DNA of 64,000 bases from Minisyncoccota bacterium (GTDB lineage: Bacteria; Patescibacteriota; Minisyncoccia; 2-02-FULL-40-12; GWA2-44-9), in NCBI GenBank assembly GCA_018062285.1, contig JAGOSO010000003.1:6992-70991 (forward strand). The letters are read 5' to 3'. The translations under genes were made by a program, and so were the position numbers. Below, in pieces: positions 4,960 to 64,000 of the stretch (position 1 is the stretch's first letter; every line of letters begins with the position of its first letter). Under the pieces are notes generated by a model. The model had not been told where the DNA came from. It ran no database searches and worked only from the letters and a program-made list of their open reading frames with translations.

Positions 4960-4979
<20 letters not shown>
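4446..4979 (+). CDS. Minor pilin (GspJ/PilW-like), 177 aa. The start was moved to the ATG at 4446.
   Basis: MNRINNQKGFTLIELVVSAF... The in-frame ATG sits 2 nt after the upstream stop. The listed ORF start at 4359 lies inside the previous gene. Confidence 0.7.
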
Positions 4980-7304
<2,325 letters not shown>

Positions 7305-17148: not shown

Positions 17149-17523
17149 ATGCTACTAAGATTTACAAGGATTAGCTTATCCAGTTTAATAATTTTATCTT
17201 TTATCTTAATTCTCTCTGCCAACAAAGCGGAGGCTCTTTCCTTGATGATGCCGTTTGGGGGTAAGATAAAATCTGTCCAACCTTGCACTTGCCCTGCAAA
17301 TCTAGCTTGGCAGATTACTGTCGGCCCGCCCCGACCCGGAGTTTTCATGTACAAACCAGGAATGTCCACCTTATTCTCTAAATTTAATATTTTCAGCCCA
17401 GGCCCTTATGTTGTGGGCATTGCAACGGGATACTCTCCCTGCATGCAAGCAAGTGTCACTGGTTGCACGCCAACCAGCACCGGCGGGCCACTTATCCGAC
17501 TTGTAGGAACCTCTGGTTTTTAG
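17149..17523 (+). CDS. Small secreted Cys-containing protein, 124 aa. First gene of a secretion-system-like operon.
   Basis: Signal peptide MLLRFTRISLSSLIILSFILILSANKAEA. No family recognised. Confidence 0.5.
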   Translation: MLLRFTRISLSSLIILSFILILSANKAEALSLMMPFGGKIKSVQPCTCPANLAWQITVGPPRPGVFMYKPGMSTLFSKFNIFSPGPYVVGIATGYSPCMQASVTGCTPTSTGGPLIRLVGTSGF

Positions 17524-17603
17524 ACCTCAAAGTATCCACACCTAGCCCTAAAATCGACACACTGATTGGTGCTATACTTAACGTAGGCAAAATAATGATT
17601 TTT

Positions 17604-17619
17604 GTGTGAAATTACACAC
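17604..17619. promoter_or_regulatory. Inverted repeat GTGTG-N6-CACAC, 12 nt upstream of the 17631 start. Candidate operator.
   Basis: Perfect 5 bp arms with a 6 nt spacer in the only sizeable intergenic gap of the operon. Confidence 0.25.
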
Positions 17620-17630
17620 GAAAAACTACC

Positions 17631-18530
17631 GTGCCAAATAAAATAAAGATCGCATTAACTCTCGTGGCCATAGTAGCCGGATTTTTGGTTTATCAGCTGG
17701 CACAATACGTCCACACAATAGCCAACGGCAACTCCACCTTCCAACAAGGCACTCCTTTGCCTAACCCTGATGATGATCCAGACCACGACGGACTAAATAA
17801 TCAACAAGAAATTATATGGGGGACAGATCCATTCAATTCAGACAGTGACAAGGATGGTTTTAAAGATGGCGAAGAGATTAAGTCGGGGCACAACCCACTC
17901 GTCCCTGGCCCCAACGACCTGCTTAACGACGACAATCTTACCCAAAAAATTTCTGATCTAACTGTTAGCGGTCTTTATTCTGGGGACCTCAAACCAGAGA
18001 GCCAGAACTACCAGCAAGCCATCGCCGACATAGCAGATGCGATCGCTGATTCTAGTAAATACACATTTGCTCAAAAAACAATATCTACCGACTTAAATAT
18101 TATTGAGGGTGGAACAAAAAACAACAAAGAATATCTAAAAAAATTAAATCCAATACTAACAGATTTTGAAATTTCACTGAAAGATCAATACGAAAATCTA
18201 ATTCCCAATCTCAACATTGTAGGTGAAAGAGGATTTTCTGATCAATCAATAAAAGACTTTTATTCAAAGCAGGAATCAAAACAATTGGATCTTTTTAAAC
18301 AAATGTCTGATCTTGATATTCCAAGAGATTTTAAAGACGCCCACCAACATTTCATGAGCATAATCCAAAGAGTGGGGGATATTAGTGAATCAATAAAAAA
18401 TGGTGAAGTTGATCCAGTTAAAGCCTCTAGCGCACTGAGCAATCTTGCTGAAATGTACCAAAACTACGAAACAATGCTTTCTGAATATAGTGTAGTAATT
18501 AATTCGAGGAGCCTAGGCGAAAGTCTATAA
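17631..18530 (+). CDS. Membrane-anchored protein with Asp-rich calcium-binding-like (TSP3-type) repeats, 299 aa, GTG start.
   Basis: N-terminal TM helix, then DDDPDHDGLNNQQE...DPFNSDSDKDGFKDGEE motifs. The remainder has no recognised family. Confidence 0.55.
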   Translation: MPNKIKIALTLVAIVAGFLVYQLAQYVHTIANGNSTFQQGTPLPNPDDDPDHDGLNNQQEIIWGTDPFNSDSDKDGFKDGEEIKSGHNPLVPGPNDLLNDDNLTQKISDLTVSGLYSGDLKPESQNYQQAIADIADAIADSSKYTFAQKTISTDLNIIEGGTKNNKEYLKKLNPILTDFEISLKDQYENLIPNLNIVGERGFSDQSIKDFYSKQESKQLDLFKQMSDLDIPRDFKDAHQHFMSIIQRVGDISESIKNGEVDPVKASSALSNLAEMYQNYETMLSEYSVVINSRSLGESL

Positions 18531-18532
18531 AA

Positions 18533-20431
18533 ATGAAAAGGTTATTTTCTGCAATATTAATAATAGTAATTATAAGTCAGTATTTTATTTATCCAATATA
18601 CGCTCAAGCAAGCATCAAAAGTAGTGCTGTTGAGTTTGCTGGGTGCGCAACCGGAAACATTGCAGGGAACTATCTTTCGGGGAAGGTTGCAGGGCTTGTG
18701 AGCAAGCTCAAGGACAAAATAAAAGATAAGGTGACAAGCGGCATAACAGACGCCTTAACAACTGTTCCGGTTTCAGACTCCGGCGTAAAAGGAGCCCAGA
18801 AGGATGGGAACGCGCAGGATTTTACAAAAGCATATGTGACTGATGTTATTGCGAGATGTGCAGCAAGAACAATATTAAACACGATGGTCGCAAATATTTT
18901 CGACATAATGCGCACTTCAGGTCGTGACGGGGGAGTAACATTCATAAGGAATTGGACAAACTTTCAATTGGCTGCTCAATACCGAGGAGAAAACATCTTT
19001 AGAGCTGAATTGAGCACTGCCCAATTGTGTGACTATCTAGCTGATGGAATAAAAAAATCTTTTGGAGTAGACCCTAACAAAAAAACTCCAATATCGGGAC
19101 AGAGCACTAGAACAGACTCATTGCAGCCCTTCAGTGTTTCCTCAAAATGCACCATGCCGGCTGGTTTTTCTATGAGTAAGTATCAAAATGATTTTGCTGG
19201 CAACGGGGGTTGGGATGCATTTTCCAGAATGCTAGAACCACAAAATAATGCTTGGGGACTTACTGCGATGTCTCAAACAGAAATAACCAAACAAAGAGGA
19301 CTCGCTGTTAGTGCTGACCTAGCTCAAGCTCAGGCCGGGTCTGGATACATAGGCACCAGTGGCAGAGGAAAAGCGGACAGTTGTGCAGTTAAAAGCCCGA
19401 ACGGTAACGATTGTATTGTCTACAATGATATAAAAACAACCGGTAGCTACATTGCCGCCAATGTAGCAGCGAGTATAAACGCTGAGCTAACTTGGATAAC
19501 TAGTGCACAAAGCTTGGGCTCTATCGTTGCAAACCTAACAGAAGTTCTTTTGAACAGGATGTTAGACCAAGGTAACCCAGACGAGGGCCTTCCTCGCTCA
19601 GCCGACGAAACAGGAGGAATAGATCTAAGCACCGCTGGCCCAACAGCCACAACAACCCCAACCGGAACACCACAAGTATGTTTACTCACTGCAACAAAAA
19701 CAAGACTCACACCCTTATCAATCCAAATAAAATCAGCGATAAACTCCATCGACTTAGGAACAAGAGAGAACACCATAAAAAGCAGGATGGACCCAGCGAT
19801 AATCCTAATCCACAACCTCAGGGTAAGTCTTTCAACCACTGAATACGACACGGCAAGTAAACTGCAAGACATAGAATCAATAATGGGATCTTTTGAATCT
19901 TTGGCCCTCACAAACAACAAAACGGCTCCCGAAACAAACCAGCTAAACGACTATAGGCGCGCAATAACAAAAGACCTTGATGATCTATTGGCGGAACCTA
20001 TCTGCACGACAGCAACCCCAACGCCAACAAGTGAGCCAGACCTAAGTTGCGCTGAACAAGGACTAAAAGAAGCATATTCACAGAATGTGGTGTCAGCAAT
20101 AAGTGATTTCATGTTAGCCCAACCAGCCATTGCATCGCTCCCAGATGACGATGAGGGTGGACCAAACAATACATTGTTTATGAATGGTGTAGTAAACACG
20201 CTGAGCGGAAAAGGATTCACCTCTGGCCGATTGCTCCATGTGGCCACTGGTAAATTAAGCGGTGACAAAATTATTGTTGGGAAAAACCCTCCTGATCCAG
20301 ATGGAGAAGTTTATGACATCATCAACTCAACGGGGGATGGCAAGCCATTTAATTCAAACGGTAAGATAAGCAATTCCTGCAAGATTCATGAAGATTGGTC
20401 AAAGCTAGTACCAGCCGAACCGGCACCATAA
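18533..20431 (+). CDS. Large secreted protein of unknown function, 632 aa.
   Basis: Signal peptide MKRLFSAILIIVIISQYFIYPIYAQA. Gly/Ser/Thr-rich with several Cys. It is tightly coupled (2 nt gap) to the neighbouring genes. Confidence 0.6.
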   Translation: MKRLFSAILIIVIISQYFIYPIYAQASIKSSAVEFAGCATGNIAGNYLSGKVAGLVSKLKDKIKDKVTSGITDALTTVPVSDSGVKGAQKDGNAQDFTKAYVTDVIARCAARTILNTMVANIFDIMRTSGRDGGVTFIRNWTNFQLAAQYRGENIFRAELSTAQLCDYLADGIKKSFGVDPNKKTPISGQSTRTDSLQPFSVSSKCTMPAGFSMSKYQNDFAGNGGWDAFSRMLEPQNNAWGLTAMSQTEITKQRGLAVSADLAQAQAGSGYIGTSGRGKADSCAVKSPNGNDCIVYNDIKTTGSYIAANVAASINAELTWITSAQSLGSIVANLTEVLLNRMLDQGNPDEGLPRSADETGGIDLSTAGPTATTTPTGTPQVCLLTATKTRLTPLSIQIKSAINSIDLGTRENTIKSRMDPAIILIHNLRVSLSTTEYDTASKLQDIESIMGSFESLALTNNKTAPETNQLNDYRRAITKDLDDLLAEPICTTATPTPTSEPDLSCAEQGLKEAYSQNVVSAISDFMLAQPAIASLPDDDEGGPNNTLFMNGVVNTLSGKGFTSGRLLHVATGKLSGDKIIVGKNPPDPDGEVYDIINSTGDGKPFNSNGKISNSCKIHEDWSKLVPAEPAP

Positions 20432-20441
20432 AACCAACGGG

Positions 20442-22451
20442 ATGCACGCCAACAAAAAACAAAAATTAATATGGGGAATAATGTTAGTGGCAACCCTGTC
20501 TTTGGTTTTACCAACACACCTCATCCAAGCAGCAACTGGGGATAGTTGGCTTGGGCTCCCAACCTTTGAGGGTTTAATGCAGGCATTCTTCTACTGGATT
20601 TTTGTTATCGTGGGCAATCTCACCGGTATTGCGGCCAAGGCTTTAAACTTTGCCATTTTCACTAGGCCAGGAGCCGACATACCCATAGTAACAGGCACTT
20701 GGACAATCCTTAGGGATTTTTCCAACATGATCTTTATACTCCTCTTGGTTTATATGGCCCTTGCAACCATTTTTGACTACGACAGTAAATACAAATTCAA
20801 AGATGTAATAGTTAAATTTGTATTTGTAGCAGTTTTAATTAATTTTAGTCTAGTAATCGGCCATCTCATTATTGATTTCTGCCAAGTTCTGACCAATGTT
20901 TTTCTGGGCACGATTGGCAACGTAGGGGATAGACTAGGCACCTATCTTAATCCATCCTTATTGTTACCTGGGCCAGACCAAGCCGGCGCAACGTTGATAT
21001 CTTTGGTTTTTGCTGTAATTCTTTCTTTGATCTATTTATTTAGTCTGCTTGTGGCCCTAGTCTTTGCTGTCATTCGCACGCCGTACATTTGGATCCTTTT
21101 AATTCTTTCTCCTCTTGCTTGGATGAGTCACATTTTTCCAAATGGAGAAAAGTGGTGGAAACAATGGTGGAGTAACTTTTGGGGCTGGAATCTTTTTTTG
21201 CCTGTATATTTATTTTTCATGTACCTGGGTCTTCTGTTTTTGGCACAGAGAGACACTATTATGTCGGCCGTTGTTAGGTCACAAATCGAAAGCGGAGGAG
21301 TCAACCCAACTGGTGTGCCGCTACTGGCTGGGCTGTCTACTTCAATGACTTTTAACCTTCTTTTCTTTTACCTATTTGCGGCCTTCGTAATGATTGGTGG
21401 TCTAAAAGCGGCAATAAGCGTTACCAGCATGATGGGCAGCGGATTTGATAAAAGCGTAGGTATGGCCAAGAATTTTGTTAAGAGATTGCCAATAGTACCT
21501 GGCGTTGGCAATCTTGAAGCTGCTGAAAAAGCTTACGGCGCACGCAGGTCGGAATTCCAACAAAAAGGATTCAGGAATCCTTGGCTCAACAAGGTCTATG
21601 GCGGGACAGATGCTCAGAAAAAAGCCAATGAAAAAGCCTCTAAATTTGCTCCTTTCCGGCTGGAAGTGCCGGAATCAAAGGTACAGAAAGACTTCGTCGC
21701 CGAAGTCAGGAAGCAATATGACGACATCGAAGATAAATATGACACAGGCGGTCTATCGATAACTCAACTAAAAGCAAAAATAGATTCCACAAAAGCAGAC
21801 AGTGCTGATGGTTACGCCTACCGCAAATTTGCAATCAAGAAAGGTGTCCTAAAGGGGGACCAGTTCAGAAACAGTCTCGAATCATTAAAAAACAATCCTT
21901 ACGCTGTTCAGGATTTTGTTAAAACCGCACAAGATGCCAAGTTTAACAACTTGGGTGACATTGCGGCCCTGGGATTAGACACGACCTTAGCAACGCCAGG
22001 GCTAGTGGCGGCAAGAAGGAGTATGCTCATGCACGTTTCAGATGACGCAAGAAGTGCCTCAAAACTCGATGCTGCCCAATTTGCTTCAGCCATACGGGAA
22101 TTAGGAACATACGAATCACCAGAAGGTAAAAAATTCTTCAAAAATGCTGGCAAATTTAGGCCAGATCTTATGATTAATTACACGCTTGATCCGGCAAACA
22201 ACACAGGGGAAACGAAGACCAGAGAGCAATTATGGGACGGAGCAATCAATACTGACGCCAAAGATATTGTCTCTATGCCTATGTCTGTTTGGGGGGAGAG
22301 TGGATTCCATGGCGCAATGAGCAGAAAACTTGGTCCGGTCGCAGGAAGAAACAATGCCCAGAAGAAACTAAGGGCAAGATTTGAGCAGCTATTCCTAAAT
22401 GACCCAGACGGGGCGGCCAAACAACTTGCGCTGGACACACACATACCTTAA
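20442..22451 (+). CDS. Polytopic membrane protein, VirB6/TrbL-like by topology, 669 aa.
   Basis: At least 7 TM helices in the first ~340 aa, then a ~300 aa hydrophilic C-terminal domain. It lies upstream of the VirB3-like and VirB4 genes. The assignment rests on architecture only. Confidence 0.4.
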   Translation: MHANKKQKLIWGIMLVATLSLVLPTHLIQAATGDSWLGLPTFEGLMQAFFYWIFVIVGNLTGIAAKALNFAIFTRPGADIPIVTGTWTILRDFSNMIFILLLVYMALATIFDYDSKYKFKDVIVKFVFVAVLINFSLVIGHLIIDFCQVLTNVFLGTIGNVGDRLGTYLNPSLLLPGPDQAGATLISLVFAVILSLIYLFSLLVALVFAVIRTPYIWILLILSPLAWMSHIFPNGEKWWKQWWSNFWGWNLFLPVYLFFMYLGLLFLAQRDTIMSAVVRSQIESGGVNPTGVPLLAGLSTSMTFNLLFFYLFAAFVMIGGLKAAISVTSMMGSGFDKSVGMAKNFVKRLPIVPGVGNLEAAEKAYGARRSEFQQKGFRNPWLNKVYGGTDAQKKANEKASKFAPFRLEVPESKVQKDFVAEVRKQYDDIEDKYDTGGLSITQLKAKIDSTKADSADGYAYRKFAIKKGVLKGDQFRNSLESLKNNPYAVQDFVKTAQDAKFNNLGDIAALGLDTTLATPGLVAARRSMLMHVSDDARSASKLDAAQFASAIRELGTYESPEGKKFFKNAGKFRPDLMINYTLDPANNTGETKTREQLWDGAINTDAKDIVSMPMSVWGESGFHGAMSRKLGPVAGRNNAQKKLRARFEQLFLNDPDGAAKQLALDTHIP

Positions 22452-22456
22452 TCAAT

Positions 22457-22951
22457 ATGGAAAACGACAAAAACTACAACACCCCCTACACAATAGGGCT
22501 GAGGCCTCTTAAGGATAGGGCCTCCATCGAAACCTACATGAATGAGGTCAGAAAAAGTCCGCCCGCCGTTTTAGGCATAATGACCGACGAAAAAACAGCT
22601 GACTTCTTAGAAGACGCTCTTGGCCCAGCTTTTGGTCTTACCGAACCAGCCATTGAAGAAATTACAAGAATTTTAAAAGACACTCTTCTTGGGAATTCAT
22701 TTGTCGGTGACCTTAGTAATGACATTAAGCATAAATTAAACATTGAAGAATACTTAGCCCAACAAATTAAAGACAAAATCGTAAAAGAACTTCTTGCCCC
22801 AGCTGCTGAAGATATTAAAAAAATACACAGAGAAAAGTTTCCAGACAGAATCAAGAAGGGAAGTGAACCAGTCCCACCTTCACCACCACAACAAACACAA
22901 CCAACACAAGTCAGTGATAGCAACGTTATCAATCTTAGGAACCAACAATAA
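22457..22951 (+). CDS. Hypothetical soluble protein with a Pro/Gln/Thr-rich C-terminal tail, 164 aa.
   Basis: ORF inside the operon with 5 nt and 8 nt gaps to its neighbours. Confidence 0.5.
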   Translation: MENDKNYNTPYTIGLRPLKDRASIETYMNEVRKSPPAVLGIMTDEKTADFLEDALGPAFGLTEPAIEEITRILKDTLLGNSFVGDLSNDIKHKLNIEEYLAQQIKDKIVKELLAPAAEDIKKIHREKFPDRIKKGSEPVPPSPPQQTQPTQVSDSNVINLRNQQ

Positions 22952-22959
22952 AAAAATAA

Positions 22960-23268
22960 ATGCGTTTTCAACTTCCACAATTCATTGAAACAGAGATAAA
23001 AATTATTGGCCCCTTTACCTTGAAGCAATTCTTGTGGGTGGCGACTGGAGCCGTGTTTTTGTTTTTAGATTTTAGCGTTTTCACTGGAGTCATCGCCATT
23101 GCAATTGCTATTCCGATTGTTGCCATATCTAGCGCTTTTGCTTTCTTAAGGATCGACGACATGCCACTAATTAATTATGTGGCCAACATGCTTTCTTTTT
23201 CTTTTGGCTCAAAAAAATATTTATACCAAGACGAAACCAATCAAAATGATATACTGAAAAGTAAATAG
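22960..23268 (+). CDS. Small two-TM protein, VirB3-like by size and position, 102 aa.
   Basis: Two hydrophobic helices (LWVATGAVFLFLDFSVF / GVIAIAIAIPIVAISSAFAFL). It lies immediately upstream of the VirB4 N-domain ORF, as VirB3/PrgI-type proteins do. Confidence 0.35.
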   Translation: MRFQLPQFIETEIKIIGPFTLKQFLWVATGAVFLFLDFSVFTGVIAIAIAIPIVAISSAFAFLRIDDMPLINYVANMLSFSFGSKKYLYQDETNQNDILKSK

Positions 23269-23271
23269 CCA

Positions 23272-23919
23272 ATGCCGACCCAATCCACAAAAGAACTAGT
23301 ATCAATTGCCGACATAAAAGACAGCATTGTCTTGCTAAAAAACGGTTCTCTCCGAGCCGTCCTTGAGGTTTCCGCGGTTAATTTTGAGCTACGTTCAGAA
23401 GAAGAACAAACCGGCATCCTTCAGAACTTCCAACGATTTTTGAATTCTGTAGATTTTCCTCTGCAGATGATTATCAACTCTCGCCAGCTCAACATGGACG
23501 AATATTTAAAAATGGTTGATGACGTCGCTGAATCATCCACAAATGAACTTCTGAAGATCCAGGCTATTGAATACCGAAAATTTGTCAAAGAACTCCTCGA
23601 ACTATCAAATATCATGACTAAGCATTTTTATGTTGTGCTACCTTTCTACGTCTACGAAACACCCACAAAAACAGGTGTATTAGACAGCATCAAGGGAATG
23701 TTTGGAAAAAATCAAACAGTTCAACAAATTAAACCAGAGCAACTTGAAACTTACCGCACCCAGTTAATGCAACGGGCTGACCTGATTCTCGACGGCCTGA
23801 TTGGTATTGGCCTTAAAGCACGCTTATTGGAGGGCCAAGAACTCAGCAATTTATACTACGGGATCTATAATCCAGGAGAAAAAATGAACACACCACCCAC
23901 AGAAAAAATAGCGATCTAA
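23272..23919 (+). CDS. VirB4/TraC/TrbE N-terminal domain-like protein, 215 aa. It is separated from the ATPase ORF by one in-frame TAA.
   Basis: ...SIADIKDSIVLLKNGSLRAVLEVSAVNFELRSEEEQ matches the conserved start of VirB4 N-domains (DG-SL...EL-G-D...S-EE). It is in the same frame as the next ORF. Confidence 0.5.
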   Translation: MPTQSTKELVSIADIKDSIVLLKNGSLRAVLEVSAVNFELRSEEEQTGILQNFQRFLNSVDFPLQMIINSRQLNMDEYLKMVDDVAESSTNELLKIQAIEYRKFVKELLELSNIMTKHFYVVLPFYVYETPTKTGVLDSIKGMFGKNQTVQQIKPEQLETYRTQLMQRADLILDGLIGIGLKARLLEGQELSNLYYGIYNPGEKMNTPPTEKIAI

Positions 23920-23922
23920 ACC

Positions 23923-25677
23923 ATGCCAGAACCACTAACCCAACAAACCCAAACTATTCCTGAAACCTTGGCCCCAGCCGCCATGTCTGTTTCTTCAAAT
24001 AGTATCCAAATTGGCCCCAAATTTGCCAGAACAATATTTCTTGCCACATACCCTAGGTATCTAAACACCAACTGGCTCTCTCCGATTATTAACTTGGACC
24101 GTGCTTTCGATGCTTCTATTTTTGTTCACCCAAAAAGCACCGCCGAGGTTTTAAAAAAGCTTCGCGATCAACTCGCCCGATTACAAGCACAAGCAATAGA
24201 AGAAGCTTCACAAGGTAAGGTGCGTGACCCAATCCTAGAAACAGCTATGGCCGACATTGAAACTCTTCGCGACAAGCTGCAGCAGGGGACAGATAAGTTT
24301 TTTGAACTAGGGGTTTATATCACTATCTACGAAAACAGTGTTAAAGAACTAGATGAAACCGAAAGTAAAATCAAAGGATTTTTGGAATACCAATTAATCT
24401 TTGCAAAGCCAGCAACCTTCCGAATGATGGAAGGATTTAATTCCACCCTCCCGACAGATGATGACCAACTCAACGTTCACACCTCATTAAACACGGAGCC
24501 ACTGTCATCACTATTCCCGTTCGTTTCTTTCGACCTTACTTCAAACTCTGGGATTCTGTATGGCATTAATACCCACAACAATTCTTTGGTTTTATTCGAC
24601 AGGTTTAAACTTGAAAACTACAATTCAGTTGTTTTTGGTAAATCTGGTGGAGGCAAAAGCTACACCATCAAACTAGAAATTCTTCGCAGTTTAGTTTTTG
24701 GCACCCAAGTACTAATCATTGACCCTGAAGATGAGTACAAATACTTAGCTGACACCGTGGGTGGTTCACCAGTAAAAATATCTATTAATTCCGACCAACA
24801 CATCAACCCATTTGACCTGCCTGCACCCAAAGAAGGGGAGATCCCGGCTGATATTTTCCGTTCTCATATTTTAGACCTGTCTGGATTGATGAAGTTAATT
24901 TTGGGAGATCTAACCCCAGAAGAATCGGCGATTCTAGACGAAGCCCTTATCCAAACTTACGCCATTAAAGACATTTCTCCTGATTCTGATTTTACAAAAA
25001 CACCACCACCAGTATTGGGTGACCTGCAAAACATTCTCGAAGGATTAACGGGAGCAGAATCAATGGCCACAAGATTAAAGAAATACACCTCTGGCACATT
25101 CGCTGGCTTCTTAAACCAACCAACAAACGTTCCCCTAGACAACCAGATGATAGTCTTTGGCATTCGAGACATGGAAGAAGAGCTTCGACCAATTGCAATG
25201 TACTTAATCTTGAACTTCATTTGGGTTAAGGTTCGTCGTGATATTAAACAAAGAATTATCTTGGTGGACGAAGCTTGGGTCTTAATGAAATACGAAGTCG
25301 GAGCCAACTTCTTATCAAACATCGCCAAGCGTTGTCGCAAATACTTCACAGGTTTAACTACTATCTCCCAAGATATTCCCGATTTCTTGGCAAGCCCCCA
25401 AGGTAAAACTATTTTGACCAACTCTTCGATTCAAATTTTGATGAAACAATCACCAGCCGCTATTGATATTGTTCAACAAACTTTCAACCTCACTGATGCC
25501 GAAAAATTCTATATCCTTGAAGCCCGCGTCGGCTTTGGCCTATTCTTCCTTGGTCAAAACCATATCGGTATTCGTATTGTTGCCTCTTACGCTGAAGACC
25601 AGATTATCACCTCTGACCCTCGCCAGATTTTAGAAATAGAAAAAGCCAAAGAAGAATGGGCTAATATTCAAAAATAG
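23923..25677 (+). CDS. VirB4/TraC/TrbE-family conjugation-type ATPase (C-terminal ATPase portion), 584 aa.
   Basis: Walker A VFGKSGGGKSYT and Walker B IILVDEAW (the DEAW hallmark of VirB4). Size and motif spacing fit a VirB4 C-terminal half. Confidence 0.75.
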   Translation: MPEPLTQQTQTIPETLAPAAMSVSSNSIQIGPKFARTIFLATYPRYLNTNWLSPIINLDRAFDASIFVHPKSTAEVLKKLRDQLARLQAQAIEEASQGKVRDPILETAMADIETLRDKLQQGTDKFFELGVYITIYENSVKELDETESKIKGFLEYQLIFAKPATFRMMEGFNSTLPTDDDQLNVHTSLNTEPLSSLFPFVSFDLTSNSGILYGINTHNNSLVLFDRFKLENYNSVVFGKSGGGKSYTIKLEILRSLVFGTQVLIIDPEDEYKYLADTVGGSPVKISINSDQHINPFDLPAPKEGEIPADIFRSHILDLSGLMKLILGDLTPEESAILDEALIQTYAIKDISPDSDFTKTPPPVLGDLQNILEGLTGAESMATRLKKYTSGTFAGFLNQPTNVPLDNQMIVFGIRDMEEELRPIAMYLILNFIWVKVRRDIKQRIILVDEAWVLMKYEVGANFLSNIAKRCRKYFTGLTTISQDIPDFLASPQGKTILTNSSIQILMKQSPAAIDIVQQTFNLTDAEKFYILEARVGFGLFFLGQNHIGIRIVASYAEDQIITSDPRQILEIEKAKEEWANIQK

Positions 25678-25679
25678 CC

Positions 25680-26213
25680 ATGCCCACAGAAGAAGAGATT
25701 ACAAAACTTCGTTTAGACCCTCAGAGAGAAAAATATCAGGCCCAACAACGAGCCCAACAATACCCTGAGAAAACAGAGGAAGACACAATAAGACTCAATC
25801 TCAGCCAAGAACGCCAAGCTTACGAACTTCAACTTCAAGCAGAACAAGAGGAAAGAGAGCCAGACCCAACCAAGCCAACAGAAAAGATGGGGTTTTTCTT
25901 TTTTGTGGCGGGATTACTCCTTTGTGTTGTGGGGGATCTTATAGATTTTTTTACTGGTGGAACAATTGGCTGGTTAGTTGGAATTTTTATAGATTTAATC
26001 CTTCTTGCAATGTTCGGCATGTCTAGGTCAGGAAGGGGACAGATAAAAAAAATACTTATAGCTGTTGTTGGAGAAAGCATTCCTGTCGTGGACATGTTAC
26101 CGCTTAGGACAATCTTCCTGTGCTGGTCATTTATAAAATCGCGTAGTAAAATTGCAAATGTTATAGACAAAGGGTTTAATTCCCGAGCTTCTGGCGCTGG
26201 ACCCGTTTTATAA
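25680..26213 (+). CDS. Hypothetical membrane protein: Gln/Glu-rich N-terminal region plus a C-terminal TM hairpin, 177 aa.
   Basis: MGFFFFVAGLLLCVVGDLIDFFTGGTIGWLVGIFIDLILLAMFGM TM segments. Operon member. Confidence 0.5.
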   Translation: MPTEEEITKLRLDPQREKYQAQQRAQQYPEKTEEDTIRLNLSQERQAYELQLQAEQEEREPDPTKPTEKMGFFFFVAGLLLCVVGDLIDFFTGGTIGWLVGIFIDLILLAMFGMSRSGRGQIKKILIAVVGESIPVVDMLPLRTIFLCWSFIKSRSKIANVIDKGFNSRASGAGPVL

Positions 26214-26226
26214 CCAATAGAAACCC

Positions 26227-27306
26227 ATGGAAAACAACAAAAAACAACTTATTACACTTATTGTTGTCGCCTCATCCCTGACTTCTTTTTTAGCTGGATA
26301 TCTACTGACCCGACCATCCAATGAAATCTCTGATGCTATTCAGCAACAAAGAGGAGTTTTGATAGACAGATTCAGTGACATGGACACAAACTCAACACCC
26401 ACACCGTTACCACCAGGACTCCTTCAGGCATCGACCGATACTGCTTTGGCCCCAACCAACGCCCACGATTCCAACTCTGTTATTTACTACCATACTGTCA
26501 ATGGACACGTTTCCAAGATTGATCTAGAAACACGCAACAGCACCTTAATTTCAACAACACAGCTCAACAATCTTTCTAGGGTTATATGGTCTTCAGACAA
26601 AAACAGAGTCGTAACTGTTTCTAGGAATTCTTCTAGCCCAGCTTATAAATACTTTGATTACACCAGCAAAGCAAATGGGTCATTGGGGATAAACATAAAA
26701 GATGCCGTCTTTTCCCCAGATAGCCAAAATATTGCCATAGTTAGATCGGCTGGGGGAGATAGCACAATTGAAATAATCGGATTTGGTGCGAGTTATCCAA
26801 AGACAATCCTAAAAACTAGATTAAATAACATAAGTTTATTTTGGCCCAGCAGTTCCACTTTGGCTTTTAGCGCAAATGATGATGGCGCAGACACTCAAAG
26901 TCTTTACTTATTAAACGAAAACGGCGAACTAACTCAGTTGATAGACGGGGAACGTGCCCTTTCCATTGTTTGGTCTTCTGATGGTTCTAGGTTTATATAC
27001 TCTGGCCGAGATGGCGACACAACAACATTAAAGCTTTTCGATATTACTTCCCAAAAATCATCCATACTCCCAGTTGCTTCAACTGCCCAAAATTGCGCCT
27101 GGACAATGGACCAAAAATCCATTCTCTGCGCAATTGAGTTCCAAGGAGAAACCTCTGCCACAAAAATAAACCTTTCTAATAATTCGACCCAAACCCTCTT
27201 TTCAAATCTAATCATCACTCCCAAGCAAGTGTTTCTGTCTAACCTTGAGGACTTCTTAGTTATTATCAGTGCTGCCGACCAAAGCATTTGGGAACTCAAG
27301 CTCTAG
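26227..27306 (+). CDS. N-terminally anchored beta-propeller (TolB/WD40-like) protein, 359 aa.
   Basis: One TM helix, then repeated strand-rich blocks with ...WSSD...VV... periodicity. Last gene of the operon. Confidence 0.5.
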   Translation: MENNKKQLITLIVVASSLTSFLAGYLLTRPSNEISDAIQQQRGVLIDRFSDMDTNSTPTPLPPGLLQASTDTALAPTNAHDSNSVIYYHTVNGHVSKIDLETRNSTLISTTQLNNLSRVIWSSDKNRVVTVSRNSSSPAYKYFDYTSKANGSLGINIKDAVFSPDSQNIAIVRSAGGDSTIEIIGFGASYPKTILKTRLNNISLFWPSSSTLAFSANDDGADTQSLYLLNENGELTQLIDGERALSIVWSSDGSRFIYSGRDGDTTTLKLFDITSQKSSILPVASTAQNCAWTMDQKSILCAIEFQGETSATKINLSNNSTQTLFSNLIITPKQVFLSNLEDFLVIISAADQSIWELKL

Positions 27307-27349
27307 TAAAACAAAACAGCCCCATATTGGGGCTGTTTTGTTTTACTAG
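27303..27349. terminator. Bidirectional terminator: a perfect 21 bp inverted repeat with A-tract/T-tract arms that spans both convergent stop codons.
   Basis: CTAGTAAAACAAAACAGCCCC-atatt-GGGGCTGTTTTGTTTTACTAG. The TAG of the + gene (27304-06) and the TAG of the - gene (27346-48) lie inside the arms. Confidence 0.8.
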
Positions 27350-27822
27350 GACCTATAGGGCTTCACGACGATGCGACGTTGAGGTTCTTGGCCAATGCTC
27401 TCGGTTGTGATGTCCGACACCGAGGCGAGCTCCATATGCACGATACGACGCTCGTAGGGAGACATGGGGGAGAGAGCTTCTGCTCTTTGTGTACTACGGA
27501 CCCTAGCAACAACTTCTTTGGCTAAGTTTGAAACTTGCGTGGCTCGTGATTTCTTATAATCATTCACGTCCACAAATAAAGTAATCCCTTCATTTTTTTT
27601 CAAAAAAAGCCCACGAACAACATGTTCGAGAGCCTGAAGGTTTTGGCCATTTTTACCAATTAAAAACTTGGCGTCCTCCGGAGCAGAAACAGAAGCAACC
27701 ACAACCTCTTTGTTGCCGGCCATTTCTTCTCTGATGGAAACATCACAAGGGACACTCATTGGCGAAATGACATTCTTAACAGTTTCGATTAATTTGTCTT
27801 TCTGGTCTTGGGTAATACTCAT
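27346..27822 (-). CDS. jag: Jag/KhpB-like RNA-binding protein (KH plus R3H domains).
   Basis: GKNGQNLQALEHVV (KH) and a C-terminal R3H-like segment. It lies downstream of yidC as in the canonical rpmH-rnpA-yidC-jag cluster. Confidence 0.8.
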   Translation of the reverse strand: MSITQDQKDKLIETVKNVISPMSVPCDVSIREEMAGNKEVVVASVSAPEDAKFLIGKNGQNLQALEHVVRGLFLKKNEGITLFVDVNDYKKSRATQVSNLAKEVVARVRSTQRAEALSPMSPYERRIVHMELASVSDITTESIGQEPQRRIVVKPYRS

Positions 27823-28527
27823 TTATTTAGCCTTTCTTAAATACAGCTGTTCTCCAATCGAAAAAGCTGTTGTTGTTATCCAATATAATATCAGACCAGC
27901 CTGAAGATTCCAACCAATAACCACGATCATGACAGGGAAAAAATACAACATCTGAGCATTTAAAGCTGACATCTGTGGATTAGAGCCACCACCAGCCTTC
28001 ATGTAGGCCATACTTTGTTTGGCTTGGATGAATTGCAAGACACCAGCTAGCAAGGCTAGGAATATATTTCTAGCACCAATACTTATAAAGCCCATAGAGA
28101 GAGGGTTAATTGCCCCAGGATTACTAACAAAAGAATAAAGCATGGAAAAACTTTCCGGCTTTAAACCAGCGATAAAAACTTGATACAAGGCAATGAGAAT
28201 AGGCAACTGAATCAACAATGGTAAACACCCAGCAATTGGATTAATATTGTTCTCCTTATAAAGCTGCATCATTGCTGCTCCTTGTGCTGCTTGATCGTTT
28301 TTGTGCTTTTCTTTTATGGCTTGGATATGTGGATTAATAGCATTTAAGGCGCGCTGAGAGCGTTGGGCCTTGATAGAGAGAGGGAAGAACAGGAAACGTA
28401 TAATTATAGTTAGGATAATTATACCTACACCAAGGTCATGCTTGGGTACAAAATTAGAAATAAATATAAGGGCATTAAAAAGCGGGACATACAGAACAAC
28501 CTTAAAGAATGCGAATATTGTACTCAT
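27823..28527 (-). CDS. yidC: Membrane protein insertase YidC (short form).
   Basis: Five TM helices and the conserved LQLPILIALY / CLPLLIQ region. 234 aa. Confidence 0.9.
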   Translation of the reverse strand: MSTIFAFFKVVLYVPLFNALIFISNFVPKHDLGVGIIILTIIIRFLFFPLSIKAQRSQRALNAINPHIQAIKEKHKNDQAAQGAAMMQLYKENNINPIAGCLPLLIQLPILIALYQVFIAGLKPESFSMLYSFVSNPGAINPLSMGFISIGARNIFLALLAGVLQFIQAKQSMAYMKAGGGSNPQMSALNAQMLYFFPVMIVVIGWNLQAGLILYWITTTAFSIGEQLYLRKAK

Positions 28528-28754
28528 TATGGATAGTCAACGCCTCCAGAGGCGAAGGGATTACATTTAATAATACGGACTAGGGCTTTCCCGCTACCCT
28601 TGATTATACCGTACTTAGCAACTGCTAGTTCAGCGTATTCGGAACAAGACGGATGAAACTTGCAATGAGTATAGACAACACCAGGGATCTGAACAGCCCT
28701 AAGCAAAAAAAACACCCTCTGATACAACCGAATTAAGACTATTACTGGATTCAT
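28527..28754 (-). CDS. yidD: Membrane protein insertion efficiency factor YidD. The start was moved to the internal ATG, about 75 aa.
   Basis: CKFHPSCSEYA motif. The ATG at 28754 overlaps the rnpA TGA in an ATGA junction. The listed longer start would run across the rnpA 3' end. Confidence 0.75.
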   Translation of the reverse strand: MNPVIVLIRLYQRVFFLLRAVQIPGVVYTHCKFHPSCSEYAELAVAKYGIIKGSGKALVRIIKCNPFASGGVDYP

Positions 28755-29089
28755 GAAAATCCAGCCTTTCTTAAAACAGCAATGAAATCCTCCTGCAAGA
28801 CACTGATCTCCACAGGAACCTTTTTCATCACTACTACTACGGTATCGCATGATGGCACATTGGGCAAGAGTTTAGGGTGGATCATGTCTGAAAAAATTCT
28901 TCTAATCTTATTTCTGACTACGGCTTTGGGGGCAAACTTAGCAGCCACAATAAAACCAAAACGGGGATAGCCCCTTTCTGTGGGGGATGACTTAATAAAC
29001 AAAAAGGAGCCGTTTACGGCTTTACCTTTTTTAAAAACAAGATCAAAATCCTTCTTGTTTTTTATACGATTCTTTGTTGGGAGAGCCAC
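28751..29089 (-). CDS. rnpA: RNase P protein component.
   Basis: 112 aa, basic, with RnpA family motifs (KNRIKNK..., RNKIRR). It lies immediately downstream of rpmH. Confidence 0.9.
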   Translation of the reverse strand: MALPTKNRIKNKKDFDLVFKKGKAVNGSFLFIKSSPTERGYPRFGFIVAAKFAPKAVVRNKIRRIFSDMIHPKLLPNVPSCDTVVVVMKKVPVEISVLQEDFIAVLRKAGFS

Positions 29090-29098
29090 GAAGAAGGG

Positions 29099-62297: not shown

Positions 62298-63602
62298 ATG
62301 AATAGTAAAAAGTTAATGTACATTTTGGTCGGTGTCATATCCGTTGCAGTTTTGATTACAATTGTTTTGGTTTTAAAGAATGTGGGTGGGTCAATTTCAA
62401 AACCAGTCACTCTTCAATTTTGGGGAGTGTTTGATGACCATAATGATTTTGACGCTACTGTAAAAAACTTTAAATCTCAAAATCCTGGAATTGATGTTAA
62501 GTATCAATTGTTTACTTTTCAGCAATATGAATCAGGATTTGTTAATGCCTTGGCAGCTGGAACAGGCCCAGATGTTCTGATGATTCACAACACTTGGCTA
62601 CCTAAGCATGGTGACAAGTTGGCTCCAATGCCTGCCACAGGCGTGCCTGACACAAAAACACCATTTACTCTACAGAATTTTAAAGATCAATTTGTCGATG
62701 TTGCTTATCAGGACTTAGTGTTTAATAATCAGATTTATGGCATGCCTTTGTATACCGATACGCTGGGTCTTTATTACAACAAAGATTTGTTTAATAGTGC
62801 TGGAATTGCTCGTCCACCTCAGACATGGGATGAGGTTAATTCAGACGTCCAATTGTTGACCAAGATTGATAAGAGTAACAATGTTATTCAGTCCGGGTTT
62901 TCTTTGGGAACTGCTCGCAACATAAACCGTTCCACCGATATTTTAATGGACATGATGATTCAGTCAGGTGCTCAAATGACCTCTGTTGATCAGCGGTCAG
63001 CCAGTTTTTCTCAAAACGTTAACGGTCAGCCAGTTGGCCAAATTGCATTACAGTATTACACAAACTTTGCTAACCCTCGAAATCAGAATTATTCCTGGAA
63101 CGATAGTCAGCACTACTCGATAGATGCTTTTACAGAGGGCACTGTGGCCATGATGCTCGGATACGCTCATGATACGCAAGTTATTAGATCCAAGGCGCCT
63201 CGTCTGAATTTTGCTGTCGCCCCAATGCCACAAGCATCGATAAGTGATGTTAGAAATTTTGCTAACTACTGGGCCGTTGCGGTTCCCTCAAAATCCACTA
63301 ATCAGTTGCAGGCTTGGAAATTTGTAAATTATTTATCCTCAAAGGAGGGGATAACAAGTTATCTTAATGCCACAAATCGCCCTTCTGCTCGAAGGGATTT
63401 AATTGATTTACAGAGGAGTGACCCGGATACTGGGGTTTTTGCTGTTCAGGCTCTTTCTGCTCGTTCGTGGTTCCAGGCAGACAATACAGCGATAGAAGGA
63501 ATTTTTGCGGACATGATTGATGATGTTAATTTTAATCGGTCTTCGCTCAAAGAAGCGATAACCCGAGCCGAATCTAGGGTTACGGTACTCATGCAACGTT
63601 AA
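62298..63602 (+). CDS. ABC transporter substrate-binding protein (family 1, sugar-type), N-terminally anchored. 434 aa.
   Basis: TM anchor, then an SBP_bac_1-like sequence (…WGVFDDHN…KYQLFTFQQYESGF…AGTGPDVLMIHNTWLP…). Confidence 0.8.
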   Translation: MNSKKLMYILVGVISVAVLITIVLVLKNVGGSISKPVTLQFWGVFDDHNDFDATVKNFKSQNPGIDVKYQLFTFQQYESGFVNALAAGTGPDVLMIHNTWLPKHGDKLAPMPATGVPDTKTPFTLQNFKDQFVDVAYQDLVFNNQIYGMPLYTDTLGLYYNKDLFNSAGIARPPQTWDEVNSDVQLLTKIDKSNNVIQSGFSLGTARNINRSTDILMDMMIQSGAQMTSVDQRSASFSQNVNGQPVGQIALQYYTNFANPRNQNYSWNDSQHYSIDAFTEGTVAMMLGYAHDTQVIRSKAPRLNFAVAPMPQASISDVRNFANYWAVAVPSKSTNQLQAWKFVNYLSSKEGITSYLNATNRPSARRDLIDLQRSDPDTGVFAVQALSARSWFQADNTAIEGIFADMIDDVNFNRSSLKEAITRAESRVTVLMQR

Positions 63603-64000
63603 TGATAAAATATTTTTCTGTATTTATTTTAATCTTTGCTCTCGTCCTTTCTTCTCCTCGCCAAGCATCTGCCGTGGATTGGTTTCCGCTTGTGCCGTGC
63701 GGTTTGAACCAACAACCGGTCGGAGCGACTAGAAAAGATACTTTGCCTGACGGGACCCAGGTCCCTCATGACTACACCCAGCCCTGCAATCAGTGCTTGC
63801 TGATAGAGTTGGGGAAGAACGGAATTGATATGACGTTTTTTGCTATTGTGCCGTCTGTTGGTACACTTTTGTTTTTGTATGCCGGATTTAAGATTTTATT
63901 AGGCGCCCGAGAAGGTAAATCTGCTCAAGTTGCAGAGGCCCAAAAAATAATGAAGACCACCGCTACGGGTATCGCCATTATTTTAAGTTCATGGCTGATA
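63602..64000 (+). CDS. Partial ORF (5' part, runs off the window): signal peptide plus two-helix small protein, VirB2/TrbC-type T4SS-pilin-like.
   Basis: Hand-translated from nt 63602: MIKYFSVFILIFALVLSSPRQASA | VDWFPLVPCGL...CNQCLL...MTFFAIVPSVGTLLFLYAGFKILLGAREGKSAQVAEAQKIMKTTATGIAIILSSWLI. Topology is a long signal peptide plus two hydrophobic helices. Confidence 0.4.
   Translation, partial: MIKYFSVFILIFALVLSSPRQASAVDWFPLVPCGLNQQPVGATRKDTLPDGTQVPHDYTQPCNQCLLIELGKNGIDMTFFAIVPSVGTLLFLYAGFKILLGAREGKSAQVAEAQKIMKTTATGIAIILSSWLI

What the first reader, a model, noticed from the sequence alone, without database searches (positions are those of the whole stretch)
17149..27306. Nine-gene operon encoding a minimal VirB4/VirB6/VirB3-like secretion apparatus with novel secreted and membrane components
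Ten ORFs lie on one strand. The first is separated by a 107 nt spacer that carries an inverted repeat, and the remaining nine are packed with 1-13 nt gaps. They encode: a small Cys-containing secreted protein; a membrane-anchored protein with Asp-rich Ca-binding-like repeats; a 632-aa secreted protein; a 669-aa polytopic protein with VirB6/TrbL-like topology; a 164-aa soluble protein; a 102-aa two-TM VirB3-like protein; a VirB4 N-domain ORF; a VirB4 ATPase ORF (Walker A GKSGGGKS, Walker B VDEAW); a C-terminally anchored membrane protein; and an anchored beta-propeller. No VirD4 coupling protein, relaxase, VirB8/9/10/11 or VirB1 is recognisable. This is therefore not a canonical conjugation system. 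It is a reduced VirB4-powered membrane machine with lineage-specific partners. In a CPR-like episymbiont with a chromosomal type IV pilus, it could serve DNA uptake or host interaction. Most partners have no recognisable family.
Basis: partly seen in the sequence, partly recalled or inferred. Interest (0 to 1): 0.85.

Follow-up and report, generated by a model that had tools for sequence, protein, structure and literature searches.

The report
Patescibacterial type IV secretion operon
This is the chromosomal, origin-proximal type IV secretion gene cluster already described for CPR/Patescibacteria, here in a Yanofskybacteria-like genome: real and well conserved, but not new, and its cargo is still unknown.

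Summary
- 23923-25677 is a VirB4 ATPase of the Gram-positive CD1110 / MPF-FATA type.
- 23272-23919 is a TrsD-like protein that matches the N-terminal part of VirB4.
- 22960-23268 is a PrgI/VirB3 protein.
- 20442-22451 is an extended VirB6. Its best natural fold matches are DotA and TrwI/VirB6.

The operon lies between ksgA and jag-yidC-yidD-rnpA-dnaA-dnaN, next to the replication origin. Its gene order is conserved in dozens of Yanofskybacteria/Paceibacteria genomes. No relaxase or coupling protein is present in the 64-kb window, nor among the recorded Pfam hits for the flanks seen.

This is the patescibacterial T4SS published in 2023-2025: no relaxase nearby, close to dnaA, and essential in one cultured Saccharibacterium.

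Points beyond the finding:
- The TrsD/VirB4 split is a conserved two-gene arrangement, not a pseudogene.
- The TSP3-anchored protein and the 632-aa protein are fused into one protein in some relatives.
- The 632-aa family is large and has no Pfam family or solved-fold match.
- VirB2-like pilin genes and an SLT (VirB1-like) domain do exist, in an array that starts at window 63602, 36 kb away.

Novelty is low and interest is modest.

The parts
17149..17523 (+). o124: small secreted Cys-containing protein. Membership of the T4SS module is doubtful.
   Evidence: The ORF and its N-terminal hydrophobic segment are confirmed. No Pfam or NCBIfam family. tblastn detects it in only 6 of 80 related loci; in other loci a roughly 480-540-aa multi-TM protein sits upstream of the o299 homologue instead. 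A promoter-like spacer separates it from the operon.
17570..17578 (+). Extended -10 promoter-like motif TGCTATACT, the likely start of the operon's transcript.
   Evidence: A TGnTAnAnT motif lies within 130 nt upstream of the o299 homologue in about 30 of 41 related loci. L001 has TGCTATAAT at the same offset of -61. This is a consensus match only; no expression data.
17599..17624 (+). Imperfect hairpin or inverted repeat in the 5' leader, just before the GTG start.
   Evidence: Predicted in the RNA fold, spacer z-score -3.2. L001 has a hairpin at the same place with both arms changed (TTTTTGCGT-AAAATA-ACGCAAAAA), and L023 has a similar one. It is not seen in most other loci. Function unknown.
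17631..18530 (+). o299: N-terminally anchored extracellular protein with bacterial TSP3 (Ca-binding type) repeats and a C-terminal domain of unknown fold.
   Evidence: Pfam TSP3_bac, 32.6 bits against a cut-off of 25. One N-terminal TM segment. Syntenic homologue in 41 of 80 loci. Fused full-length to the o632 core in P0130 (40% identity over 284 aa) and P0234 (30%).
18533..20431 (+). o632: secreted protein with a conserved core (about residues 100-350) that has four invariant Cys and many invariant polar residues. Family uncharacterised.
20442..22451 (+). o669: extended VirB6-like polytopic membrane protein. The N-terminal 330 aa hold about 6-7 hydrophobic segments; the C-terminal 340 aa form a basic helical-repeat domain.
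22457..22951 (+). o164: soluble protein without hydrophobic segments and with a Pro/Gln-rich tail. Unknown role.
   Evidence: No family or PDB hit. No hydrophobic segment. A soluble ORF of 155-330 aa occupies this slot between VirB6 and PrgI in most loci examined, although tblastn recognises only 19.
22960..23268 (+). PrgI-family (VirB3-like) small membrane protein.
   Evidence: Pfam PrgI, 36.7 bits against a cut-off of 27. One 44-residue hydrophobic hairpin. Syntenic in 59 loci.
23272..23919 (+). TrsD-like protein, equivalent to the N-terminal domain of VirB4.
   Evidence: It aligns to positions 11-144 of the CD1110 VirB4 model and 102-233 of the Mycoplasma-type VirB4 model (8e-11). TrsD/TraD family 7.4e-7. 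29% identity (1.8e-24) to the ORF upstream of virB4 in Pontibacillus. Present as a separate ORF in 79 of 80 loci.
23923..25677 (+). VirB4 ATPase, MPF-FATA / CD1110 type, with Walker A GKSGGGKS and Walker B VDEAW.
   Evidence: NCBIfam NF045971, 353.3 bits against a cut-off of 325, covering model positions 181-733. Pfam P-loop_TraG, AAA_10 and CagE_TrbE_VirB. PDB 4ag5 at 4.6e-42 and TrwK at 1.2e-5. 51-95% identity in 80 CPR loci.
25680..26213 (+). o177: membrane protein with a hydrophilic N-terminal tail, a TM hairpin and a third hydrophobic segment carrying a conserved E-x-I-P...P motif. Lineage-specific.
   Evidence: No family. Positionally conserved straight after virB4; the family HMM hits 46 loci at about +1.7 kb. 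Not a VirB2-type pilin: hhalign probability 0.5% against a T4SS_pilin alignment.
26227..27306 (+). o359: N-terminally anchored TolB/PD40-like beta-propeller.
   Evidence: NCBIfam TolB propeller 1.8e-8 and Pfam PD40 1e-3, both below their cut-offs. PDB TolB 1.3e-4. One N-terminal TM segment. Syntenic in 53 loci.
63602..64000 (+). Start of a second T4SS-related cluster. This 393-aa ORF runs off the window end and combines a T4SS_pilin-like segment with an SLT lytic transglycosylase domain. Further pilin-domain genes follow it.
   Evidence: The contig continuation is L082 (window position = L082 position + 52297). First ORF: SLT 31 bits against a cut-off of 21.3, T4SS_pilin 24 bits (below the 26.6 cut-off). 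Downstream genes: 515 aa (T4SS_pilin 39.5 bits), 141 aa, 127 aa and 104 aa (33.2 bits).

Best explanation
[quoted passage not shown] It is a monoderm, MPF-FATA-derived T4SS, inherited vertically and sited next to the replication origin.

Proposed working. Component identities are shown; assembly and function are inferred from knowledge of VirB/Trw and Prg systems.
- The VirB4 ATPase, whose N-terminal domain is supplied by the separate TrsD-like protein, forms the cytoplasmic motor.
- The motor docks on the small PrgI/VirB3 membrane protein.
- It energises a channel or assembly platform built from the extended VirB6 protein.
- VirB2-like pilins and an SLT wall hydrolase, encoded 36 kb away, supply an extracellular filament and a local opening in the wall.
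- Four lineage-specific envelope proteins make the extracellular or envelope-spanning part, in place of a recognisable VirB8: the Ca-binding TSP3-anchored protein, the 632-aa secreted protein that is fused to it in some relatives, the small membrane protein after virB4, and the anchored beta-propeller.

No relaxase or coupling protein is nearby, so it is very unlikely to be a conjugation machine. The most likely role is contact-dependent transfer between the episymbiont and its host cell, most probably export of proteins or a pilus-mediated host interaction. The cargo is not known.
For: Component identity:
- VirB4 above the curated CD1110 cut-off; TrsD-like N-domain; PrgI above the Pfam cut-off.
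- VirB4 resembles solved VirB4 structures.

Vertical, housekeeping context:
- The locus is flanked by uvrD and ksgA upstream, and by jag-yidC-yidD-rnpA, dnaA and dnaN downstream.
- The cumulative GC-skew minimum lies at 26-28 kb, and GC content is the same as in the flanks.
- The order uvrD-ksgA-...-virB4-...-jag-yidC-dnaA-dnaN recurs in most of the 46 loci with VirB4 identity of 67% or more. The VirB6-PrgI-TrsD-VirB4 core persists down to 51% identity.

Not a pseudogene: TrsD and VirB4 are separate ORFs in 79 of 80 loci, and in different frames in 58 of 79.

No T4CP or relaxase among all sizeable ORFs of the window, nor among the Pfam hits on record for contig positions 1-80.6 kb.

Pilin array with SLT at window 63602 onward.

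The same core order, pilin-pilin-VirB6-VirB3-TrsD-VirB4-hydrolase, occurs in a Bacillota replicon with 35% VirB4 identity.

Literature:
- A Patescibacteria VirB4 clade nested in MPF-FATA; TrsD, PrgI and VirB6 near virB4; relaxases rare; proximity to dnaA, dnaN, ksgA, rnpA and rpmH (PMC12102498).
- The T4SS is essential for epibiotic growth of Southlakia epibionticum and independent of comEC (PMC10633639, PMC12857230).
Against: - No functional data exist for this organism, and the substrate is unknown even in the cultured Saccharibacteria (PMC11665869).
- VirB6 is supported by fold and transitive hits only. The protein itself has no Pfam hit at E<=1, and the Foldseek E-values are weak, at about 0.2.
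- No VirB8-like protein was recognised.
- Linking the distal pilin/SLT cluster to this operon is an inference from domain content, not from co-regulation or conservation.
- A coupling protein could be encoded in the unseen part of the genome. The 2025 survey found VirD4 homologues far from virB4 in most genomes.
- No VirB4 phylogeny was built here.
Confidence: 0.88

Rival explanations
1. The machine imports material from the host or the environment rather than exporting it. It would take up DNA or nucleotides in the manner of the ComB system of Helicobacter or the archaeal Ced system.
For: - These organisms cannot make nucleotides, and reviews raise T4SS-mediated uptake as a candidate (PMC11665869).
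- The VirB4 gives weak hits to CedB and CedD DNA-import ATPases (35 and 21 bits).
- There is no relaxase or T4CP, as in ComB-type systems.
- In class ABY1 the T4SS lies next to comF, recG and radA (PMC12102498).
Against: - The CedB and CedD scores are far below the family cut-offs of 700 and 600.
- In S. epibionticum, competence depends on comEC and type IV pili, while the T4SS is essential independently of comEC (PMC12857230).
- The neighbours in this window are housekeeping genes, not competence genes.
- Nothing in the sequence indicates the direction of transport.
Confidence: 0.2
2. The locus is a decaying remnant of an integrated conjugative element. Its VirB4 would be inactivated by an in-frame stop codon (TAA at 23917-23919).
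For: The TrsD-like ORF and the VirB4 ORF are in the same frame, separated only by TAA ACC. Relaxase, T4CP and VirB8 are absent.
Against: - The split is present in 79 of 80 related loci. In 58 of 79 the two ORFs are in different frames, often with overlapping stop and start codons, so this is an old two-gene arrangement.
- The same split occurs in Bacillota and is known as TrsD in pGO1-type systems (PMC12102498).
- All genes are intact, tightly packed and syntenic down to 51% VirB4 identity.
- The flanks are housekeeping genes, there is no integrase, and GC content is uniform.
Confidence: 0.02
3. The ATPase is a generic FtsK/HerA-type P-loop protein, the polytopic protein is an unrelated transporter, and the locus is not a T4SS at all.
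For: Pfam DUF87/HerA hit at 5.8e-8. The 669-aa protein has no direct Pfam hit.
Against: - VirB4-specific models score far higher: CD1110 at 353 bits, TraC at 178, VirB4_CagE at 130.
- PrgI and TrsD are adjacent.
- The best natural fold matches of o669 are T4SS channel proteins, not transporters.
Confidence: 0.01

Closest known systems
Patescibacteria-clade T4SS (Quinonero-Coronel et al. 2025, PMC12102498; Southlakia epibionticum SEML1_0006-0019, Wang et al. 2023, PMC10633639)
   Same: - An MPF-FATA-like VirB4 with a separate TrsD.
- PrgI/VirB3 and VirB6 next to virB4.
- No relaxase or T4CP nearby.
- A chromosomal site beside dnaA, dnaN, ksgA, rnpA and yidC.
- VirB2-like pilin arrays in the genome.
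- VirB8 not recognisable.
   Different: - In this genome the pilin array and the SLT domain lie 36 kb from virB4 rather than inside the cluster.
- The accessory set is not mentioned in the main text of that survey: TSP3-anchored protein, 632-aa secreted family, 2-3-TM protein after virB4, anchored beta-propeller.
- Essentiality is shown only for the Saccharibacterium, not for Paceibacteria.
Gram-positive conjugative T4SS of MPF-FATA type (pCF10 Prg/Pcf, pGO1 Trs, C. difficile CTn2 CD1110 family)
   Same: - VirB4 of the CD1110 family, above the curated cut-off.
- The PrgH-PrgI-PrgJ-like order VirB6-VirB3-VirB4 (order recalled from knowledge of pCF10).
- TrsD as in pGO1.
- No outer-membrane core (VirB7/9/10).
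   Different: - No relaxase, no T4CP, no VirB8-like PrgL and no adjacent wall hydrolase.
- VirB2-like pilins are present elsewhere in the genome; Gram-positive systems lack them.
- Chromosomal, vertically inherited, and not on a mobile element.
Pontibacillus sp. ALD_SL1 replicon NZ_CP062975.1, 352-361 kb (the closest match in the plasmid collection)
   Same: - Order: pilin, pilin, VirB6-like (779 aa), VirB3-like, TrsD-like, VirB4, then an M23/NlpC-P60 hydrolase.
- VirB4 35% identical and TrsD 29% identical (1.8e-24).
- The VirB6 family HMM hits at 2.2e-6.
- The replicon is typed non-mobilizable.
   Different: - Pilins and hydrolase are inside the cluster.
- There are no counterparts of o299, o632, o177 or the propeller.
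- The host is a Bacillota member, not a CPR organism.
R388 Trw / Agrobacterium VirB (MPF-T) and Legionella Dot/Icm
   Same: - The VirB4 ATPase core (TrwK 1.2e-5).
- VirB2/TrbC-type pilin domains in the distal array.
   Different: No VirB5, VirB7-VirB11 or VirD4. Monoderm envelope. About 10% sequence identity in the VirB6 alignment.

Membership tests
Patescibacteria-clade T4SS (MPF-FATA-derived) | VirB4 ATPase of the monoderm MPF-FATA type | tested here: met
   NCBIfam CD1110 family, 353.3 bits against a cut-off of 325. Walker A and B present. PDB 4ag5 at 4.6e-42.
Patescibacteria-clade T4SS (MPF-FATA-derived) | VirB4 falls inside the monophyletic Patescibacteria clade of the VirB4 tree | tested here: inconclusive
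   No tree was built. As a proxy, 80 CPR loci share 51-95% identity, whereas the best of 3093 plasmid-borne VirB4 matches has 35%.
Patescibacteria-clade T4SS (MPF-FATA-derived) | Separate TrsD-like gene adjacent to virB4 | tested here: met
   23272-23919 matches the N-terminal part of VirB4 models and the TrsD/TraD family. The split is conserved in 79 of 80 loci.
Patescibacteria-clade T4SS (MPF-FATA-derived) | PrgI/VirB3 homologue near virB4 | tested here: met
   Pfam PrgI, 36.7 bits against 27.
Patescibacteria-clade T4SS (MPF-FATA-derived) | VirB6 homologue near virB4 | tested here: met
Patescibacteria-clade T4SS (MPF-FATA-derived) | No relaxase or coupling protein associated with virB4 | tested here: met
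   None among the sizeable ORFs of the 64-kb window, nor among the recorded Pfam hits for contig positions 1-80.6 kb. The rest of the genome was not seen.
Patescibacteria-clade T4SS (MPF-FATA-derived) | Chromosomal position next to dnaA, dnaN, ksgA, rnpA and yidC (Paceibacteria arrangement) | tested here: met
   ksgA ends 7 nt before the first ORF. jag, yidC, yidD, rnpA, dnaA and dnaN follow. The GC-skew minimum is at 26-28 kb.
Patescibacteria-clade T4SS (MPF-FATA-derived) | VirB2-like pilin genes in the genome | tested here: met
   Five T4SS_pilin/TrbC-domain genes start at window 63602. Two are above the Pfam cut-off, at 39.5 and 33.2 bits against 26.6. None lies within the operon itself.
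Patescibacteria-clade T4SS (MPF-FATA-derived) | Required for epibiotic growth | not testable with these tools
   Shown by Tn-seq only for Southlakia epibionticum (PMC10633639).
Conjugative T4SS (any MPF class) | Relaxase (MOB) and type IV coupling protein | tested here: not met
   Absent from the window and the flanks seen.
Conjugative T4SS (any MPF class) | Carried on a mobile element (plasmid or ICE with integrase and boundaries) | tested here: not met
   Housekeeping flanks are conserved across dozens of genomes. There is no integrase, and GC content is uniform.
Gram-positive minimal T4SS set (VirB1, B3, B4, B6, B8, D4) | VirB8-like bitopic protein with an NTF2-like domain | tested here: inconclusive
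   No Pfam, NCBIfam or PDB sequence hit for any operon protein.
Gram-positive minimal T4SS set (VirB1, B3, B4, B6, B8, D4) | VirB1-like cell-wall hydrolase | tested here: met
   Not in the operon. An SLT domain (31 bits against 21.3) is fused to a pilin-like segment in the ORF that starts at window 63602.
DNA-import T4SS-like systems (archaeal Ced) | CedB/CedD-type ATPase | tested here: not met
   35.1 and 20.6 bits against cut-offs of 700 and 600.

The most novel reading that the evidence does not exclude
The TSP3-anchored protein (17631-18530) and the 632-aa secreted protein (18533-20431) may together form an undescribed extracellular T4SS component that is widespread in Patescibacteria. It would have a new fold and possibly an enzymatic or ligand-binding site, and it would fill the role of the 'missing' VirB8, VirB5 or adhesin at the host-contact face.

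Support:
- The two proteins occur as one fused polypeptide in at least two divergent relatives.
- The o632 core has 19 invariant residues, including four Cys.
- It has no Pfam family and no solved-fold match.
- It counts hundreds to thousands of sequence clusters.
- In every locus examined it lies directly upstream of VirB6.
Probability: 0.3. Interest if true: 0.5.

Novelty: new member of a known kind. Interest (0 to 1): 0.3.

Why it matters
The T4SS is one of the few machines shown to be essential for the epibiotic life of CPR bacteria, and its cargo and direction of transport remain unknown. This locus does not change that picture. It is one more, well-conserved example from the Yanofskybacteria branch.

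Its practical value is a cleaner parts list for Paceibacteria:
- TrsD plus VirB4 as a genuine two-piece ATPase.
- An extended VirB6 with a confident model.
- A conserved set of four uncharacterised envelope proteins. One pair is linked by gene fusion, and one belongs to a large family with no known fold.
- A pilin-SLT fusion in a distal pilin array.

These are concrete targets for structure work or for genetics once a Paceibacteria co-culture can be manipulated.

Tried and rejected
1. In-frame stop as pseudogene or read-through. Rejected: the split is conserved and usually out of frame.
2. o177 as a divergent VirB2 pilin. An HMM built from three T4SS_pilin proteins found pilin genes in 15 related loci but never the o177 family. 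hhalign probability was 0.5%. Pfam and PDB profile scans of 41 positional orthologues gave only hydrophobic-bias hits.
4. o299's C-terminal domain as VirB8-like. PDB sequence hits were only weak matches to helical proteins such as cytochrome b562 fusions. Not settled, because no structure could be predicted.
5. o164 and TrsD against PDB: nothing informative.
6. A direct Pfam hit for o669: none at E<=1. The identical database protein carries a precomputed PF19590 label that the local Pfam copy did not reproduce, and I did not verify what that accession is.
8. An exact-seed inverted-repeat search of the spacer found nothing, and the window's hairpin sequence is not found verbatim in any locus.
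9. The sigma-70 and terminator scan of the region gave fewer promoter-like sites than in shuffles and terminator-like sites only about 1.8 sd above them, so it was uninformative.

Full report
**Observation.**
- The gaps are 107 nt after the first ORF and then 2, 10, 5, 8, 3, 3, 2 and 13 nt.
- Walker A (GKSGGGKS) and Walker B (VDEAW) are in the 584-aa product.
- A hydropathy scan reproduces the stated topologies.
- The spacer holds an imperfect 10-pair hairpin at 17599-17624. An exact-seed repeat search missed it, but RNA folding recovers it, with a spacer z-score of -3.2.

**Identity of the core.**
- 23923-25677 scores 353 bits on NCBIfam's CD1110-family VirB4 model (cut-off 325). It also hits TraC, VirB4_CagE and the Pfam VirB4-type domains. 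Its best solved relatives are the Thermoanaerobacter VirB4 (4ag5, 4.6e-42) and R388 TrwK (1.2e-5).
- 23272-23919 aligns to positions 11-144 of the same VirB4 model, while the ATPase ORF covers positions 181-733. It also matches the TrsD/TraD family. Together the two ORFs make one VirB4.
- 22960-23268 is a PrgI-family (VirB3-like) protein, above the Pfam cut-off.
- 20442-22451 has no direct Pfam hit, but several lines point to VirB6:
  - 4 of 48 homologues hit TrbL/VirB6, best 1.5e-7.
  - A confident AF2 model (pLDDT 86) has R388 TrwI/VirB6 chains as its only high-probability Foldseek matches.
  - The C-terminal 340 residues form a basic helical-repeat domain, which fits the 'extended VirB6' type described in PMC12857230.

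**The split VirB4.** The TrsD-like and VirB4 ORFs share a reading frame in this window, separated by TAA ACC. That could suggest a pseudogene or read-through. Across 80 related loci the two are separate ORFs in 79. In 58 of 79 they are in different frames, often with overlapping stop and start codons. The same split occurs in a Bacillota replicon (29% identity, 1.8e-24). It is an old two-gene arrangement, and the shared frame here is incidental.

**Context.**
- Upstream lie uvrD/pcrA and ksgA. Downstream, on the other strand, lie jag/khpB, yidC, yidD and rnpA, followed by dnaA and dnaN.
- The cumulative GC skew reaches its minimum at 26-28 kb, and GC content does not differ from the flanks.
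- Every other sizeable ORF of the window is housekeeping or type IV pilus machinery. There is no relaxase, coupling protein or integrase.
- The window is positions ~6992-70991 of contig JAHZTO010000222.1, assembly GCA_020049755.1. Its closest relatives are Ca. Yanofskybacteria, in the Parcubacteria/Paceibacteria group.

**Conservation.** tblastn and family HMMs on the 80 loci show a conserved order: uvrD-ksgA-[variable]-o299-o632-VirB6-[soluble protein]-PrgI-TrsD-VirB4-o177-propeller-jag-yidC-yidD-dnaA-dnaN.
- The full order holds in most of the 46 loci with VirB4 identity of 67% or more.
- The VirB6-soluble-PrgI-TrsD-VirB4 core persists down to 51% identity.
- The first ORF (124 aa) is found in only 6 loci, and other genes replace it elsewhere. 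It is probably not part of the module.
- An extended -10 motif (TGnTAnAnT) lies upstream of the o299 homologue in about 30 of 41 loci, and at 17570-17578 here. The operon therefore most likely starts at o299.
- The leader hairpin recurs at the same place in L001 with both arms changed, and a similar hairpin occurs in L023.

**Accessory proteins.**
- o299 carries bacterial TSP3 repeats, above the Pfam cut-off.
- o359 is a TolB/PD40-like propeller, supported by sub-threshold but consistent hits.
- An exhaustive profile search shows the o632 family is large: 258 clusters at E<=1e-30 and 1174 at <=1e-10.
- Two divergent members, P0130 and P0234, are fusions of a full-length o299-like protein with the o632 core. 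This suggests the two products work as one anchored extracellular unit.
- o177 is positionally conserved straight after virB4 and is not a VirB2-type pilin.

**A second cluster.** The ORF that begins at window 63602 and runs off the window is a 393-aa protein with a T4SS_pilin-like segment and an SLT lytic transglycosylase domain. It is followed by four more T4SS_pilin/TrbC-domain genes. The system is therefore not pilin-less or hydrolase-less: those parts lie 36 kb away. In more distant Paceibacteria the pilin genes sit 0-6 kb downstream of virB4, and in L045 a pilin gene takes the o177 slot.

**Comparison with what is known.** The locus fits the published description of the patescibacterial T4SS.
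- The 2025 survey (PMC12102498) reports the following:
  - A Patescibacteria VirB4 clade nested in MPF-FATA.
  - TrsD as the commonest partner.
  - PrgI and VirB6 near virB4.
  - VirB8 mostly undetectable.
  - VirB2-like pilin arrays.
  - Relaxases that are rare.
  - T4CP homologues that lie far from virB4.
  - Proximity to dnaA, dnaN, ksgA, rnpA and rpmH in Paceibacteria.
- Tn-seq in Southlakia epibionticum shows the T4SS is essential for epibiotic growth (PMC10633639). This is independent of comEC (PMC12857230). Its role is still described as completely unknown (PMC11665869).
- Outside the CPR, the nearest match in the plasmid collection is a Pontibacillus replicon. It has the same core order and 35% VirB4 identity.

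**Mechanism.** Component identities are shown; assembly and function are inferred.
- TrsD plus VirB4 form the ATPase, which sits on PrgI and the VirB6 platform.
- Distal pilins and the SLT domain provide a filament and passage through the wall.
- The TSP3/o632 unit, o177 and the propeller form the lineage-specific envelope part.
- With no relaxase or coupling protein nearby, conjugation is unlikely.
- Contact-dependent export or pilus-mediated host interaction is the most likely role. Uptake of host DNA or nucleotides is the main rival.

**Verdict.** I score it as a new member of a known kind, with modest interest. That interest rests mainly on the uncharacterised, conserved accessory proteins.

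Noticed in passing
window 63602-64000 and beyond (L082 11305-15901): An array of five T4SS_pilin/TrbC-domain genes directly follows a solute-binding-protein gene. The first gene fuses a pilin-like segment to an SLT lytic transglycosylase domain. The second pilin-domain gene, the third gene of the array, is a 515-aa protein with the pilin domain in its middle.
   Followed up: partly
window 60592-61047 and 61221-61640 (+): Two paralogous small proteins share an N-terminal membrane segment (SKEFWIGFLVAVVVFVGLxELQ...NRAAALSDLN). Neither has a Pfam family. Their function is unknown.
   Followed up: no
window 1-5300 (+) and 39491-41215 (-); contig upstream (L084 2362-11970): A complete type IV pilus gene set is present: PilM, PilO, PilB, PilT, PilC at window 788-1990, several N_methyl pilins and a prepilin peptidase. 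A second PilB-like T2SSE ATPase is at 39491-41215.
   Followed up: partly
window 26000-31200: The cumulative GC-skew minimum coincides with the jag-yidC-yidD-rnpA / dnaA-dnaN divergent cluster. The replication origin therefore lies within about 2-4 kb of the end of the T4SS operon.
   Followed up: partly
window 17570-17624; L001 3427-3480; L023 upstream of 4053: An extended -10-like motif is followed by a leader hairpin. The stem sequence differs between genomes while pairing is kept (window TTTTTGTGTG/CACACGAAAA; L001 TTTTTGCGT/ACGCAAAAA). It could be a regulatory RNA hairpin or an operator for the operon.
   Followed up: partly
L081 (Pontibacillus sp. ALD_SL1, NZ_CP062975.1, 351.8-361.4 kb): A Bacillota 0.9-Mb replicon typed non-mobilizable carries a pilin-pilin-VirB6-VirB3-TrsD-VirB4-hydrolase cluster beside chemotaxis and flagellar genes. 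No relaxase is annotated within about 9 kb on either side. It may be another co-opted, non-conjugative MPF-FATA system.
   Followed up: no
window 36736-37572 (-), 54190-54810 (-), 9029-9610 (+), 41542-42096 (+): Several sizeable ORFs among housekeeping genes have no Pfam family.
   Followed up: no
L045 11718-12128: In one Parcubacteria relative, the slot straight after virB4 holds a classic 137-aa T4SS_pilin gene (28.7 bits) instead of the o177-family membrane protein.
   Followed up: partly
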